From NCBI RefSeq assembly GCF_003334785.1, contig NZ_QOWV01000007.1: a stretch of 64,000 nt of DNA, one strand, 5' to 3'. Position 1 is the stretch's first letter. Each line of letters opens with the position of its first letter. Positions 30-5,897 of this stretch are shown one piece after another. This stretch comes from Escherichia coli (GTDB lineage Bacteria > Pseudomonadota > Gammaproteobacteria > Enterobacterales > Enterobacteriaceae). The notes beneath the pieces were generated by a model. That model ran no database searches, was not told where the DNA came from, and worked only from the letters and a program-made list of their open reading frames with translations. The position numbers and the translations under genes were made by a program.

Positions 30-353
30 CATGACCTCTATATATTTATCTCCGGCGGTCATACCCGTCGTCTTTCAGGCCGCAGCGGCGTTAGCTTCAC
101 GCCCTCACCCCAGTCACTTACTTATGTAAGCTCCTGGGGATTCTGGCGCTTGCTACCTTGCTGCACCCAGAAATCCATAGGGTATGTGAAGTAATACCCT
201 AACCACCACCGGGTCGTTCTATCCGTCGGTATTTTACAAAATTGTTAACAATTTTTAAACAACAAACGGCAACCGATTTGTCTATTCGCTAATAACCTCA
301 ATACATTCATGAGATTACCAGAAAAAAGCCGGCCGTTGGGCCGGCTCTTTTAC

Positions 354-2246
354 TTACATCACCAGACGGCGAATGTCAGACAGCGTGTTGTTAATGATGG
401 TAATGAAACGGGCACCATCAGCACCGTCGATCACGCGGTGGTCGAAGGAGAGAGAAATCGGCAGCATCAGACGCGGCACGAACTCTTTACCATTCCACAC
501 CGGCTCCATCGCGGACTTGGAAACGCCGAGGATAGCCACTTCCGGCGCGTTCACAATCGGCGCGAAGTGGGTAGTACCCAGGCCGCCGATGCTGGAGATG
601 GTGAAGCAACCGCCCTGCATTTCGCCCGCAGTCAGCTTACCGTCACGCGCTTTCTTAGAAATAGTCATCAGCTCGCGAGACAGCTCGATGATGCCTTTCT
701 TGTTGACGTCTTTGAATACCGGAACAACCAGACCGTTCGGGGTATCCACCGCCACACCGATGTTGATGTATTTCTTCAGGGTCAGACGCTGACCGTCTTC
801 CGACAGCGAACTATTGAAGCGAGGCATCTGCTCAAGAGCTGCAGCAACGGCTTTCATGATGAAGACAACCGGGGTGATCTTCACATCCAGCTTACGTTTC
901 GCCGCTTCTTCGTTCTGCTGTTTACGGAACGCTTCCAACTCGGTGATATCGGTTTTGTCGAAGTGAGTAACATGCGGGATCATTACCCAGTTACGGCTCA
1001 GGTTCGCACCAGAGATTTTCTGGATGCGGCCCAGTTCCACTTCTTCGATTTCACCAAACTTGCTGAAGTCCACCTTCGGCCACGGCAGCATGCCAGGGAT
1101 ACCACCGCCAGTCGCTGCCGGAGCTGCTTCTGCACGTTTGATAGCTTCTTTCACGTAAGCCTGAACGTCTTCGCGCAGGATACGACCTTTACGGCCAGTG
1201 CCCTTCACTTTCGCAAGGTTAACACCAAACTCGCGTGCCAGACGGCGGATCAGCGGAGTCGCGTGAACATAAGCGTCGTTTTCAGCAAATTCAGATTTGC
1301 CTTCCGCTTTCGCAGCTGGTGCTGCTGCCGGGGCTTCAGCTTTTGCTGCCGGTGCCGGCGCTGCCGCTTCCTGTTTCGCAGGAGCTGCCGCAGGCGCTGC
1401 GCCTTCAACTTCGAAGATCATAATCAGCGAGCCAGTTTTCACTTTATCGCCAACGTTGACTTTCAGTTCCTTCACGACGCCTGCAAACGGCGCCGGAACT
1501 TCCATAGAAGCTTTGTCGCCTTCTACGGTGATCAGTGACTGTTCAGCGGCAACTTTGTCGCCCACTTTCACCATCACTTCAGTCACTTCAACTTCGTCAC
1601 CGCCGATATCCGGAACGTTAACTTCTTTCACGCCAGCCGCTGGTGCAGGGGCCGCTGCCGGAGCTGCTTCCTGTTTAGCGGCCGGAGCTGCCGCGCCTGC
1701 TTCACCCGCGACTTCGAAGACCATAATCAGCGAGCCGGTAGACACTTTATCACCCACGTTCACTTTGATCTCTTTCACGGTGCCAGCAAACGGAGCCGGA
1801 ACTTCCATAGAAGCCTTGTCGCCTTCTACGGTGATCAGCGACTGTTCAGCTTCAACTTTATCGCCAACTTTCACCAGGATTTCGGTCACTTCAACTTCGT
1901 CGCTGCCGATATCCGGAACGTTAACGTCTTTTGCCGCCGCAGCCGCTGGTGCTGCTGCCGGAGCTGCTTCTTTCTTCTCTTCTGCCTGAGCAGGTGCAGC
2001 GTCTGCTGCACCGTCGGCGGAATCGAAAATCATAATCAGTGCGCCGGTCTGGGTTTTATCGCCAACAGAGACTTTGATCTCTTTAACGATACCCGCCTGC
2101 GGAGACGGAACTTCCATAGAGGCTTTGTCGCCTTCTACGGTGATCAGCGACTGTTCGGCTTCAACTTTGTCGCCCACTTTGACCAGGATCTCGGTGATTT
2201 CAACTTCATCAGCCCCGATGTCCGGTACTTTGATTTCGATAGCCAT
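354..2246 (-). CDS. aceF: pyruvate dehydrogenase E2, dihydrolipoamide acetyltransferase
   Basis: 630-aa ORF; three tandem lipoyl domains (repeated ...[40 protein letters not shown]...) separated by Ala/Pro-rich linkers, then the catalytic domain with DHRVIDGA motif. Confidence 0.97.
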
Positions 2247-2260
2247 TATTCTTTTACCTC

Positions 2261-4924
2261 TTACGCCAGACGCGGGTTAACTTTATCTGCATCGATGTTG
2301 AATTTGGCGATTGCGTCAGCAACCACTTTCTTATCGATTTCGCCACGTTTAGCCAGTTCGCCCAGCGCCGCAACCACGACATAAGAAGCATCAACTTCGA
2401 AGTGGTGACGCAGGTTCTCACGGCTGTCGGAACGACCGAAGCCATCAGTACCCAGTACGCGGTAGTCGTCAGCCGGTACGTAAGTACGGACCTGCTCAGC
2501 GAACAGTTTCATATAGTCGGTAGATGCCACTGCCGGAGCGTCGTTCATCACCTGAGCGATATACGGAACGCGCGGAGTTTCCAGCGGGTGCAGCATGTTC
2601 CAGCGTTCACAATCCTGACCATCACGCGCCAGCTCGGTGAAGGAGGTCACGCTATAAACGTCAGAACCTACGCCGTAATCTTTCGCCAGGATCTCAGCTG
2701 CTTCACGGACGTGACGCAGGATAGAACCGGAGCCGAGCAGCTGAACTTTACCTTTGCTACCTTCAATAGTTTCGAGTTTGTAGATACCTTTACGGATACC
2801 TTCCTCAGCACCTTCCGGCATTGCCGGCATGTGGTAGTTTTCGTTCAGCGTAGTGATGTAGTAGTAAACGTTCTCTTGTTTTTCACCGTACATACGCTCC
2901 AGACCGTCATGCATGATGACAGCAACTTCGTAAGCGTAAGCCGGGTCGTAAGAGATACAGTTCGGGATAGTCAGCGACTGAATGTGGCTGTGACCATCTT
3001 CGTGCTGCAGACCTTCGCCGTTCAGGGTGGTACGACCGGAAGTACCGCCGATCAGGAAGCCACGCGCTTGCTGGTCGCCAGCCGCCCAGCACAGATCGCC
3101 AATACGCTGGAAGCCGAACATCGAGTAATAGATGTAGAACGGGATCATCGGCAGATTGTTGGTGCTGTAAGAGGTCGCCGCTGCCAGCCAGGAACAACCT
3201 GCGCCCAGCTCGTTGATCCCTTCCTGCAGAATCTGACCTTTCTCGTCTTCTTTATAGTAAGCAACCTGCTCGCGGTCCTGCGGGGTGTACTGCTGACCGT
3301 TCGGGCTGTAAATACCAATCTGACGGAACAGACCTTCCATACCGAAAGTACGCGCTTCGTCGGCGATGATCGGTACCAGACGATCTTTGATCGACTTGTT
3401 CTTCAGCATCACGTTCAGAGCACGAACGAAAGCGATAGTGGTAGAGATCTCTTTGCTCTGCTCTTCCAACAGCGCGCCGAAGTCTTGCAGGCTCGGCAGC
3501 TCAAGCTTCTCGGTGAAGTTCGGCTGACGGCTTGGCAGATAACCGTGCAGTTTCTGACGCTGAGCGTGCAGATAGGTATGCTCTTCAGAACCTTCCGGGA
3601 AGGTGATGTACGGCAGTTTTTCGATATCTGCATCAGACACCGGCACATTGAAACGGTCGCGGATATGACGCACACCGTCCATGTTCATTTTCTTAACCTG
3701 GTGCGCGATGTTTTTACCTTCAGCCGCGTCGCCCATGCCGTAACCTTTAATGGTATGAGCAAGGATTACTGTCGCTTTGCCTTTGGTTTCCTGCGCTTTC
3801 TTGAATGCAGCGTAGATTTTCTTCGGATCGTGACCACCACGGTTCAGTGCCCAGATCTGCTCGTCAGTCCAGTCTGCAACCAGTGCTGCGGTTTCAGGAT
3901 ATTTACCGAAGAAGTGTTCACGAACGTACGCACCATCTTTCGATTTGAAGGTCTGGTAGTCGCCGTCAACGGTTTCGTTCATCAGCTGGATCAGTTTACC
4001 GCTGGTATCCTTACGCAGCAGTTCATCCCAACGGCTACCCCACATCACTTTGATCACGTTCCAGCCAGCACCTTCGAAGATGCCTTCCAGTTCGTTGATG
4101 ATCTTGCCGTTACCGGTGACCGGGCCGTCAAGACGCTGCAGGTTACAGTTGATAACGAAGACCAGGTTATCCAGTTTTTCACGGGTAGCGATGGTGATCG
4201 CACCTTTGGATTCCGGTTCGTCCATTTCACCGTCACCGAGGAACGCGTAAACGGTTTGTTTAGAGGTATCTTTCAGGCCACGGTGTTCCAGATATTTCAG
4301 GAATTTAGCCTGGTAAATAGCACCAATCGGACCCAGACCCATAGATACGGTCGGGAACTGCCAGAATTCCGGCATCAGTTTCGGGTGCGGATAGGAAGAG
4401 AGGCCATTGCCGTGAACTTCCTGACGGAAGTTATCCAGCTGCTCCTGAGTCAGACGACCTTCCAGGAAAGCACGAGCGTACACGCCCGGGGAGATGTGGC
4501 CCTGGAAGTAAACCAGGTCGCCGCCATCCTGCTCGTTGCGTGCACGGAAGAAGTGGTTAAAGCACACATCATAAATGGTTGCGGAAGACTGGAAGGACGC
4601 CATATGGCCGCCCAGTTCGAGGTCTTTTTTCGACGCACGCAGCACCGTCATGATGGCGTTCCAGCGGATAGCTGAACGAATACGGCGTTCCAGTTCCAGA
4701 TTACCCGGATACTCCGGTTGTTCTTCAACGGGGATGGTGTTGATGTAGTTGCTGATACCTGTGCCTGCGGCTACGTTTACACCGCCTTTGCGGGCTTCAG
4801 CAAGCAGTTGGTCGATCAGATACTGAGCACGCTCAACACCTTCTTCACGGATGACCGATTCGATCGCCTGGAGCCAGTCGCGAGTTTCGATCGGATCCAC
4901 GTCATTTGGGAAACGTTCTGACAT
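2261..4924 (-). CDS. aceE: pyruvate dehydrogenase E1 component
   Basis: 887-aa ORF starting [29 protein letters not shown]; 14 bp upstream of aceF on the same strand. Confidence 0.97.
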
Positions 4925-5084: not shown

Positions 5085-5849
5085 CTAATTCTTTCGTTGC
5101 TCCAGACGACGCAGAGAACGCTCACGGCGGCTCTCTTCACGACTTCTGTCGAGCAAAATTTCTTCGATAAAGGCCAGATGGCGATGCGATGCTTCGCGCG
5201 CTTCTTCCGGCTTACCGGCCATAATCGCTTCAAATATGCGGGTGCGGTGACTACTCACCAGCGGCAGCATCTCGCGACGCGAATAGAGCAATTCGAAGTT
5301 CTGGCGGACATTCTGGGCCAACATCGGCTCCATACACCTTAGCAGATGAAGCAGAACCACATTGTGGGCCGCTTCGGTGACGGCAATCTGATACTGGAGT
5401 ACGGCGTTTGATTCCGCGTCCAGATCGCCAGACTGCTGCGCCAGCTCTATGGCGTGGTGGAGTTCACGGATGCGTTCCTTGTCTTCATCGGTACTACGCA
5501 GCGCGGCGTAATAAGCGGCGATACCTTCCAGGGCGTGTCGTGTTTCGAGCAAGTCATACTGTGACTCAGGATGGTCGGAGAGCAGCTCCACCAGCGGATC
5601 GCTGAAGCTTTGCCATAGGCTGCTCTGGACAAAAGTGCCGCCACCCTGGCGACGAAGCAACAAGCCCTTCGCTTCGAGACGTTGAATCGCCTCACGCAAG
5701 GAGGGACGGGAGACGTCAAACTGTTTTGCCAGTTCGCGTTCCGGTGGGAGTTTTTCGCCCGGGCGGAGAGTGCCTTCGAGGATCAAAAACTCCAGTTGCT
5801 GCTCAATCACATCGGAGAGTTTTGGTTGGCGGATTTTGCTGTAGGCCAT
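5085..5849 (-). CDS. pdhR: GntR-family pyruvate-responsive repressor of the pdh operon
   Basis: ORF track gives 265 aa from an upstream in-frame ATG; the known N-terminus [17 protein letters not shown] begins at the ATG at 5847-5849 (254 aa); winged-HTH then FCD-type domain. Confidence 0.93.
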
Positions 5850-5880
5850 GAGTTCCTGTCTTAAGCCACTTGCCGAAGTC

Positions 5881-5897
5881 AATTGGTCTTACCAATT
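5881..5897. promoter_or_regulatory. PdhR operator (perfect palindrome AATTGGT-CTT-ACCAATT) in the pdhR promoter region
   Basis: 17-bp inverted repeat read directly at 5881-5897, ~30 bp upstream of the pdhR start; matches the ATTGGTnnnACCAAT-type PdhR box. Confidence 0.7.

What the first reader, a model, noticed from the sequence alone, without database searches (positions are those of the whole stretch)
1400..2246. Triplicated lipoyl-domain module in aceF is repeated at the DNA level
The three lipoyl domains are also near-identical at the nucleotide level. The string GGAACTTCCATAGA(A/G)GC(T/C)TTGTCGCCTTCTACGGTGATCAG recurs at 1495, 1798 and 2107, a 303-309 bp register. These direct repeats are substrates for unequal recombination, and the sequence identity implies concerted evolution. 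The Ala/Pro-rich linkers between domains create the Ala/Ser/Thr-rich antisense ORF at 1297-1989.
Basis: partly seen in the sequence, partly recalled or inferred. Interest (0 to 1): 0.3.

Follow-up and report, generated by a model that had tools for sequence, protein, structure and literature searches.

The report
Three repeated lipoyl domains in aceF
This is the long-known triple lipoyl-domain repeat of the E. coli pyruvate dehydrogenase E2 gene: the copies are only 75-85% alike in DNA, and the shared 41-base string is mostly an invariant peptide written in preferred codons, yet that string is where rare natural one-, two- and four-domain alleles have recombined.

Summary
The window is E. coli, and 354-2246(-) is aceF. 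The 41-nt string is present at 1495, 1798 and 2107, 303 and 309 bp apart, with none expected by chance.

"Near-identical" is overstated:
- The folded domains are 75-85% identical (dS 0.47-0.90).
- The linkers are saturated at synonymous sites.
- Only a 75-nt core reaches 91-92%.

The string encodes [13 protein letters not shown], which is invariant in 199 of 237 domain copies from 79 genomes. It lies 1-3 nt from the consensus of all those copies.

Concerted evolution is not the main cause. L1 always groups with L1 of other species. L1-L2 and L1-L3 are no closer within the genome than across genomes. Only L2-L3 show modest homogenisation. Clear 60-100-nt identical L2/L3 tracts exist in other genera, but not in this window.

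The recombination claim holds. Exact-sequence look-ups found one-, two- and four-domain alleles. All 15 mapped junctions lie at nt 66-157 of the domain, 14 of them overlapping the string. Six of 5,426 finished E. coli genomes carry two-domain alleles, on at least five backgrounds.

The antisense ORF is a by-product of a stretch with no Tyr or His. This is a known feature and of low interest.

The parts
354..2246 (-). aceF, dihydrolipoyllysine-residue acetyltransferase (E2p), 630 aa
   Evidence: ORF. NCBIfam NF008814 equivalog, 1101 bits against a cut-off of 722. Pfam domains. 100% identical to annotated aceF of E. coli FORC 064.
2019..2246 (-). Lipoyl domain L1 (aa 1-76, lipoyl-Lys 41)
   Evidence: Pfam Biotin_lipoyl aa 4-73. 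GDKASMEVP motif. Coordinates.
1938..2018 (-). Ala/Pro-rich linker 1 (aa 77-103)
   Evidence: Codon alignment. Synonymous sites are saturated between linkers, and there is no excess of identical codons.
1710..1937 (-). Lipoyl domain L2 (aa 104-179, lipoyl-Lys 144)
   Evidence: Pfam Biotin_lipoyl aa 107-176..
1635..1709 (-). Ala/Pro-rich linker 2 (aa 180-204)
1407..1634 (-). Lipoyl domain L3 (aa 205-280, lipoyl-Lys 245)
   Evidence: Pfam Biotin_lipoyl aa 207-277..
1269..1406 (-). Ala/Pro-rich linker 3 (aa 281-326)
2107..2147 (-). Core string copy in L1. On the coding strand it is CTGATCACCGTAGAAGGCGACAAAGCCTCTATGGAAGTTCC, encoding [13 protein letters not shown](P).
   Evidence: Position within the domain is nt 100-140, in frame.
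1798..1838 (-). Core string copy in L2
1495..1535 (-). Core string copy in L3
1297..1989 (+). Antisense ORF (230 aa; Ala 55, Ser 43, Thr 32). A compositional by-product, not a gene.
   Evidence: It lies opposite AceF aa 86-317, which has no Tyr and no His. All 7 stops in this frame across aceF lie opposite Gln, His or Tyr codons.
1161..1268 (-). Peripheral-subunit (E3) binding domain
   Evidence: Pfam E3_binding aa 327-362.
357..1052 (-). Acyltransferase catalytic domain
   Evidence: Pfam 2-oxoacid_dh aa 399-629.

Best explanation
The region is the N-terminal third of E. coli aceF. An ancient triplication of a roughly 100-codon unit (lipoyl domain plus Ala/Pro linker) predates the radiation of Enterobacterales. 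The three copies have since evolved mostly independently under strong purifying selection. The shared 41-nt string arises because the peptide around the lipoyl-lysine ([13 protein letters not shown]) is nearly invariant and this highly expressed gene writes it in preferred codons, so the same DNA recurs in every copy and every genus. Occasional short recombination events add to this, chiefly between L2 and L3. Whatever its origin, the identical core (exact runs of 23-32 nt in this allele) is long enough to serve as the crossover point for rare unequal homologous recombination. That yields two-, one- and four-domain alleles, which persist at about 0.1% in E. coli. The three-domain state is presumably kept by selection; that step is inferred. 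The antisense ORF is a by-product of amino-acid composition.
For: Shown:
- Gene and domain identity.
- Copy divergence of 75-85% with dS 0.47-0.90, and saturated linkers.
- Codon identity at same-residue columns is 68-78% against 52% expected from aceE/aceF codon usage. With the repeats' own usage only L2-L3 stay significant (P = 0.0002). The linkers show no excess.
- All 78 Enterobacterales orthologues have three domains.
- L1's nearest neighbour is an orthologue in 78 of 78 species; L2 and L3 mostly so.
- Within- versus cross-genome third-position distances: L1-L2 0.487 vs 0.470, L1-L3 0.461 vs 0.498, L2-L3 0.316 vs 0.437 (minimum 0.336).
- The string's peptide is invariant in 199 of 237 copies. 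The window copies lie 1, 3 and 2 nt from the pan-consensus. The median species has 35 of 41 columns identical in all three copies; the window has 39.
- The probability that two species use the same codon at invariant residues is 0.58 in the core and 0.63 in the catalytic domain.
- Recombinant alleles: four-domain proteins; exact matches to the predicted 529-, 527- and 426-aa products on 182, 454 and 38 contigs; all 15 junction intervals at domain nt 66-157, 14 overlapping the string.
- Finished genomes: 4 + 2 two-domain alleles, 0 one-domain, 0 four-domain; distinct haplotypes.
- Four-domain alleles in two finished Salmonella chromosomes.

Literature:
- One domain suffices in vitro (Guest 1985, as cited in PMC5013485).
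- Fewer domains lower growth rate and yield (title of Dave 1995, in the reference list of PMC10579247).
Against: The core of this allele is somewhat more alike among its three copies (8.0-9.3% different) than it is to paralogous cores of other species (mean 15-16%; only 1-3% of species are as low). Codon identity in the core is 18/23, 19/22 and 18/23, against about 0.60 expected (P = 0.054, 0.008, 0.054). So a small contribution from short conversion tracts, or from lineage-specific codon preference, cannot be excluded.

Many variant alleles come from short-read or metagenome assemblies. In those, a k-mer graph can jump at the same shared core, and several ENA four-domain proteins are clearly inter-species chimeras. 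The real frequency is therefore uncertain, and the claim rests mainly on the finished genomes.

Selection for three domains is inferred, not tested here.
Confidence: 0.85

Rival explanations
1. One reading: ongoing concerted evolution (gene conversion or repeated unequal crossover) keeps the three copies alike in E. coli, and the 41-nt identity is its footprint.
For: L2-L3 are closer within E. coli than to any cross-genome counterpart (0.316 against a minimum of 0.336), and 72 of 78 species show the same sign. The core is slightly more alike within the window than across genomes. Three clustered synonymous changes make L2 L1-like in three E. coli strains. Unmistakable identical tracts of 60-100 nt between L2 and L3 occur in Leminorella, Siccibacter, Serratia and other genera.
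Against: L1 groups by position in 78 of 78 species. L1-L2 and L1-L3 show no within-genome excess. Domain-wide dS is 0.47-0.90 and the linkers are saturated. The window's L2-L3 halves are 16% and 20% different, so there is no recent tract. The string is the pan-species consensus for an invariant peptide, and its synonymous sites are not unusually conserved.
Confidence: 0.12
2. The one-, two- and four-domain alleles are all assembly artefacts. Unequal recombination at this repeat does not occur at an appreciable rate in nature.
For: ENA metagenome proteins P0002, P0010, P0015, P0025 and P0023 are inter-species chimeras joined exactly at the core. The 527-aa allele is mostly on 2-10 kb contigs. 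L1 and L2 share a 32-nt exact word, which is longer than the k = 31 used for the Logan assemblies (that k value is from memory). No four-domain junction occurs in 5,426 finished E. coli genomes.
Against: Six finished chromosomes carry contiguous two-domain alleles, annotated in RefSeq, on different haplotypes. P0001 is found in two independent isolate assemblies. Serratia symbiotica has fixed one- and two-domain forms (PMC5013485). Mosaic L2/L3 units in other genera need real recombination.
Confidence: 0.08
3. The conserved core is a nucleotide-level functional element (an mRNA structure, a regulatory site or a translational pause signal), and that is why its synonymous sites agree.
For: Codon identity in the core exceeds a gene-wide codon-usage null (P = 0.0002-0.003).
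Against: Across 77 species the core's invariant-residue codons are no more conserved at synonymous sites than those of the catalytic domain (0.58 vs 0.63; Mann-Whitney P = 0.09, and in the opposite direction). The core is polymorphic at synonymous sites within E. coli.
Confidence: 0.03

Closest known systems
E. coli K-12 aceF (E2p) with three tandem lipoyl domains. References as listed in PMC8421416: Stephens et al. 1983, Eur J Biochem 133:481; Guest et al. 1985, J Mol Biol 185:743.
   Same: It is the same gene. The window allele is 99.9-100% identical to annotated aceF in thousands of E. coli genomes, with the same domain order. PMC8421416 states that the three domains are 73% identical in protein.
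   Different: Nothing material. That the repeat is visible in the DNA was, to my recollection, already noted with the original sequence. I could not open that paper.
Engineered AceF with altered lipoyl-domain number, from the Guest laboratory. Guest 1985 as cited in PMC5013485; Dave, Guest and Attwood 1995, Microbiology 141:1839, listed in PMC10579247.
   Same: The natural 529-, 527- and 426-aa alleles have the same architectures as the laboratory two- and one-domain constructs. Hybrid domains are joined within the conserved core.
   Different: These are spontaneous alleles in wild isolates, not constructs. Their fitness has not been measured.
Reduced AceF of Serratia symbiotica endosymbionts (PMC5013485)
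   Same: Natural loss of one or two lipoyl domains from a three-domain enterobacterial AceF.
   Different: In the symbionts the loss is fixed during genome reduction. In E. coli the reduced alleles are rare polymorphisms, about 0.1% of finished genomes.

Membership tests
PDH-complex dihydrolipoyllysine-residue acetyltransferase (AceF, NCBIfam NF008814) | Full-length match above the curated cut-off | tested here: met
   1101.5 bits against a cut-off of 722, covering residues 1-630 of the protein and 1-637 of the 637-position model.
PDH-complex dihydrolipoyllysine-residue acetyltransferase (AceF, NCBIfam NF008814) | Domain order of lipoyl x3, then E3-binding, then catalytic, with a lipoyl-lysine in a DKA motif in each lipoyl domain | tested here: met
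   Pfam PF00364 three times, PF02817 and PF00198. GDKASMEVP with Lys 41, 144 and 245.
PDH-complex dihydrolipoyllysine-residue acetyltransferase (AceF, NCBIfam NF008814) | Operon context pdhR-aceE-aceF-lpd | tested here: met
   aceE at 2261-4924(-) and a 265-aa ORF at 5085-5882(-) in the pdhR position (pdhR assigned from position and my own reading, not searched). lpdA lies downstream in RefSeq records.
Tandem paralogues under concerted evolution | Paralogues within a genome are more alike than the same paralogue pair compared across genomes, or they group by species | tested here: not met
   L1's nearest neighbour is an orthologue in 78 of 78 species. L1-L2 is 0.487 within and 0.470 across; L1-L3 is 0.461 and 0.498. 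It is met only weakly for L2-L3 (0.316 vs 0.437).
Tandem paralogues under concerted evolution | Identifiable conversion tracts: runs of identity bounded by normally diverged sequence | tested here: inconclusive
   There are none in the window beyond the 23-32-nt core runs. A candidate tract of 13-32 nt makes L2 L1-like in three E. coli strains. Tracts are clear in other genera, for example 98-nt identical runs in Leminorella and Siccibacter.
Direct repeats acting as substrates of unequal homologous recombination | Tandem direct repeats sharing exact identity of about 25 nt or more. The minimal efficient segment for RecA-dependent recombination is about 23-27 bp (from memory). | tested here: met
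   Exact shared runs of 32 nt (L1-L2), 26 nt (L1-L3) and 23 nt (L2-L3).
Direct repeats acting as substrates of unequal homologous recombination | Both deletion and duplication products exist, with junctions inside the shared identity | tested here: met
   Two-, one- and four-domain alleles. All junction intervals lie at domain nt 66-157. Six finished genomes carry deletions. Duplications occur only in draft E. coli assemblies and in two finished Salmonella chromosomes.
Protein-coding gene (for the antisense ORF 1297-1989) | Evidence of coding beyond an open frame | tested here: not met
   The open frame is fully accounted for by the lack of Tyr and His in AceF residues 86-317, and its composition mirrors the sense codons. 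No homology search was run on it.

The most novel reading that the evidence does not exclude
The conserved lipoyl-lysine core of aceF is a natural recombination hotspot. It generates a low-frequency, recurrent copy-number polymorphism in wild E. coli and Salmonella: one-, two- and four-domain alleles, with two-domain alleles in about 0.1% of finished E. coli genomes. In other Enterobacterales the same core anchors mosaic L2/L3 units, in which the C-terminal halves are identical and the N-terminal halves are diverged. This would be a natural counterpart of the Guest laboratory's domain-number engineering, held at three copies by mutation-selection balance. I found no paper describing it in the library that was searched.
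Probability: 0.6. Interest if true: 0.3.

Novelty: already known. Interest (0 to 1): 0.15.

Why it matters
It matters little for discovery, because the triplicated lipoyl module of aceF is a textbook feature. The follow-up is useful in three ways:
- It shows that a perfectly repeated string inside paralogous domains need not mean gene conversion. An invariant peptide plus codon bias can produce it.
- It documents that natural E. coli isolates do carry two-domain, and in draft assemblies one- and four-domain, aceF alleles recombined at that string.
- It warns that the same string causes chimeric assemblies and mis-annotation. PGAP labels the 527-aa allele 'partial'.

Tried and rejected
- A coverage-based survey of E. 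coli genomes seemed to show that every genome has three domains. I rejected it as a test, because the tool joins off-register pieces and a two-domain allele can still reach 80% or more coverage. I replaced it with strict-E-value searches for contiguous hybrids.
- The first codon-bias null, based on gene-wide usage, overstated the excess in the core. The cross-species same-codon probability at invariant residues (0.58-0.63) is the fairer null and leaves only marginal significance.
- E. albertii L002 looked like a two-domain allele (533 aa, two DKA motifs). It is only a locus cut at the L1-L2 linker, so I discarded it.
- The polymorphism table for 13 E. coli alleles has too few sites, and too strong a codon bias, for a formal test of conversion direction. 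I treat it as suggestive only.
- ENA four-domain proteins were rejected as evidence because they are inter-species chimeras.
- Literature searches for natural aceF copy-number variants in E. coli found nothing specific. The 1983 sequence paper is not held.

Full report
**What is there.** The window is E. coli. The ORF at 354-2246 on the minus strand encodes a 630-aa protein. It matches the NCBIfam equivalog for the pyruvate dehydrogenase E2 component end to end, at 1101 bits against a cut-off of 722. Pfam finds three Biotin_lipoyl domains (aa 4-73, 107-176, 207-277), an E3-binding domain and the acyltransferase domain. aceE lies upstream at 2261-4924. The DNA is 100% identical to annotated aceF of E. 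coli FORC 064 and is present in 5,425 of 5,426 complete E. coli genomes.

**The observation.** The 41-mer occurs exactly three times, at 1495, 1798 and 2107, with none expected by chance. The spacings are 303 and 309 bp. Tandem Repeats Finder calls a 303-bp period with 2.7 copies and 80% matches over 1411-2225.

The copies are not near-identical, however. A codon alignment gives these values:

| Comparison | L1-L2 | L1-L3 | L2-L3 |
|---|---|---|---|
| Folded domain, nt identity | 77% | 75% | 85% |
| Folded domain, dS | 0.76 | 0.90 | 0.47 |
| Linker, nt identity | 65% | 62% | 73% |
| Linker, pS (saturated) | 0.75 | 0.88 | 0.71 |
| 25-codon core, identical nt | 69/75 | 68/75 | 68/75 |

The longest exact runs shared by two copies are 32 nt (L1-L2), 26 nt (L1-L3) and 23 nt (L2-L3).

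**Why the string is identical.** On the coding strand the string is in frame and encodes [13 protein letters not shown](P), the hairpin that carries the lipoyl-lysine. I extracted all three domains from 78 Enterobacterales orthologues.
- The peptide is invariant in 199 of 237 domain copies.
- The consensus DNA of all copies in all genomes differs from the window's L1, L2 and L3 strings by only 1, 3 and 2 nt.
- The median species already has 35 of 41 columns identical in all three of its copies. The window has 39, which ranks second of 79.

The codons used (CTG, ATC, ACC, GTA, GAA, GGC, GAC, AAA and so on) recur in every copy of every genus inspected. Across species, the probability that two genomes use the same codon at an invariant residue is 0.58 in the core, 0.63 elsewhere in the domain and 0.63 in the catalytic domain. 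The core is therefore under no special synonymous constraint. An invariant peptide in a codon-biased gene accounts for most of the identity.

**Tests of concerted evolution.**
- *Codon identity.* At same-residue columns the domains share 68-78% of codons, against 52% expected from aceE/aceF usage (P = 0.006, 0.007 and 5e-6). With the repeats' own usage as the null, only L2-L3 remain significant (P = 0.0002). The linkers show no excess.
- *Nearest neighbours.* L1 is closest to another species' L1 in 78 of 78 cases. L2 and L3 usually group by position, but in roughly 10-15 species they are each other's nearest neighbour.
- *Within- versus cross-genome distance.* If the triplication predates speciation and no conversion has occurred since, d(Li_A, Lj_A) should equal d(Li_A, Lj_B). 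At third positions E. coli gives 0.487 vs 0.470 for L1-L2, 0.461 vs 0.498 for L1-L3, and 0.316 vs 0.437 (minimum 0.336) for L2-L3. Family-wide the mean excess is 0.03-0.04 for pairs involving L1 and 0.10 for L2-L3.
- *The core.* In the window allele the three cores are 8.0-9.3% different from one another, against 15-16% across genomes. Only 1-3% of species are as low. Against the fairer null of 0.60, the codon identities are only marginally high (P = 0.054, 0.008, 0.054).

In short, L1 has evolved independently since before the Enterobacterales radiation. L2 and L3 have been partly homogenised. At most a weak lineage-specific effect acts on the core.

**Where concerted evolution is real.** I split the domain at the core. 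Eight of 78 species have L2 and L3 C-terminal halves that are 0-5.7% different while their N-terminal halves stay at 14-20%. No species shows the reverse. The identical runs are 98 nt in Leminorella (domain nt 142-239) and 98 nt in Siccibacter (127-224). In a Serratia species the two copies are near-identical from about nt 67 to 207, with normal third-position divergence on either side. These are recombination tracts with one end in or near the core. The window's own L2-L3 halves are 16% and 20% different, so it carries no recent tract.

**Unequal recombination.** A protein search returned AceF proteins of 723-735 aa in E. coli, Salmonella and Citrobacter.
- P0001 is L1-[L2/L1 hybrid]-L2-L3.
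- P0003, P0011 and P0014 are L1-L2-[L3/L2 hybrid]-L3.
- Several ENA metagenome versions are inter-species chimeras joined at the core, and I discounted them as misassemblies.
- P0001 occurs in two independent NCBI isolate assemblies.

I then built the reciprocal deletion products in silico and looked them up by exact sequence:

| Product | Length | Contigs | Longest contig |
|---|---|---|---|
| L1-[L2/L3] | 529 aa | 182 | 5.26 Mb |
| [L1/L2]-L3 | 527 aa | 454 | 5.28 Mb |
| One-domain [L1/L3] | 426 aa | 38 | 273 kb |

All 15 alleles for which I fetched DNA have their crossover interval within domain nt 66-157, and 14 of them overlap the 41-nt string.

A k-mer assembler would jump at the same place, so I counted contiguous hybrid junctions in the 5,426 finished genomes, using an E-value limit that only an unbroken hybrid can pass:
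- The L2|L3 allele is in four genomes: C4, C2, Rb-50 and VTB97379v.
- The L1|L2 allele is in two genomes: 01_3327 and 03_3013.
- The one-domain junction and both four-domain junctions are in none.

The four L2|L3 alleles sit on four different haplotypes, with 5-15 differences in the last 975 nt of aceF and 12-19 in the adjacent aceE, so the deletion has recurred. Two finished Salmonella chromosomes carry four-domain alleles. The products are rare, about 0.1% of finished E. coli genomes, and in finished genomes deletions outnumber duplications.

**Why three copies persist (inferred).** One domain suffices for activity in vitro (Guest 1985, as cited in PMC5013485). Lowering the lipoyl-domain content reduces growth rate and yield (title of Dave 1995, in the reference list of PMC10579247). 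All 78 orthologues with complete loci have three domains. Rare variants against a uniform three-domain background fit mutation-selection balance. I did not test fitness.

**The antisense ORF.** The ORF at 1297-1989 is in the antisense frame in which the third codon positions of the two strands coincide. In that frame a stop requires a Tyr, His or Gln codon on the sense strand. All seven stops in that frame across aceF lie opposite such codons. The ORF lies opposite AceF residues 86-317, which contain no Tyr, no His and five Gln. Sense Ala reads as Ala, Glu/Asp as Ser, and Val as Thr, which explains the composition. It is a by-product, not a gene.

**Comparison with what is known.** The triplicated lipoyl module, its redundancy and the effect of changing its number were established by the Guest and Perham laboratories in the 1980s and 1990s (references listed in PMC8421416 and PMC10579247). 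Natural loss of domains is described for Serratia symbiotica (PMC5013485). In the searched library I found no description of natural copy-number variants in E. coli, or of the core-anchored mosaics. Those are modest extensions of a known system.

**Verdict.** The finding is a real but already known feature. The string observation is correct, 'near-identical' is overstated, the recombination inference is right, and the concerted-evolution inference is mostly wrong for this window.

Noticed in passing
L081 (NZ_CP183097.1, E. coli strain 446), aceF at locus 1501-3201. Corresponds to window 1566-1757.: An in-frame 192-nt deletion joins the 'VNVGDKV' hairpin of the second half of L2 to the 'VKVGDKV' hairpin of the first half of L3. 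It is out of register and uses the domain's internal pseudo-twofold half-repeat, leaving L1 plus a 1.6-domain hybrid with two lipoyl-lysine motifs. It could be a real allele or an assembly error.
   Followed up: partly
Window L2, CDS nt 375, 381 and 387 (window 1872, 1866, 1860). Seen in L081, L084 and L091.: Three clustered synonymous differences make L2 identical to L1 over CTGGTCAAAGTGGGCGACAAA in three E. coli strains. This is a candidate 13-32-nt conversion tract segregating within the species. There are too few sites for a formal test.
   Followed up: partly
P0038 (668 aa, NCBI E. coli) and P0035 (680 aa): P0038 has a 38-aa internal duplication within L2, joined at SLIMV/SLITV, the same half-repeat homology. 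P0035 has a 50-aa duplication that covers much of the E3-binding domain and the following linker.
   Followed up: no
P0002, P0010, P0015, P0023, P0025, P0032 (ENA metagenome assemblies): These four-domain or odd-length AceF proteins are chimeras of E. coli with another enterobacterial species. Most are joined exactly at the conserved lipoyl-lysine core; P0032 is joined in the E3-binding region. The shared string appears to cause cross-species misassembly.
   Followed up: partly
L108 and L112 (NZ_CP074961.1, NZ_CP074958.1): RefSeq/PGAP annotates the intact 527-aa [L1/L2]-L3 aceF allele as a pseudogene: 'incomplete; partial in the middle of a contig; missing N-terminus'. The ORF is in fact complete from the normal ATG.
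   Followed up: yes
L082 (E. coli O157:H7 EC4115), L2 codon 61: Codon 61 of L2 is ACC (Thr) instead of GTG (Val), so all three bases differ. Thr is the residue found at this position in L2 of several of the other genera inspected. This suggests an imported or ancestral segment rather than point mutation.
   Followed up: no
Window 327-346, with the T-run on the minus strand: A GC-rich hairpin (GCCGGCC-loop-GGCCGGC) lies immediately downstream of the aceF stop codon and is followed on the minus strand by TTTTTT. It looks like an intrinsic terminator between aceF and lpd. The scan reported the stem on the + strand (sequence).
   Followed up: no
H40 (NZ_CP107281.1, laboratory strain JCL301): Only the last 96 nt of aceF remain, next to ampE. 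This appears to be an engineered deletion of the pdh region in a laboratory strain.
   Followed up: no
E. coli genomes survey: 43 finished genomes matched the repeat region at less than 95% identity. Only seven are explained (six two-domain alleles and strain 446). The rest may be divergent lineages or further rearrangements.
   Followed up: no
P0036 (Citrobacter sp., 731 aa): An unusual unit order, [L1/L2]-[L3/L1]-L2-L3, with every junction at the core. It is either a complex rearrangement or a misassembly.
   Followed up: no
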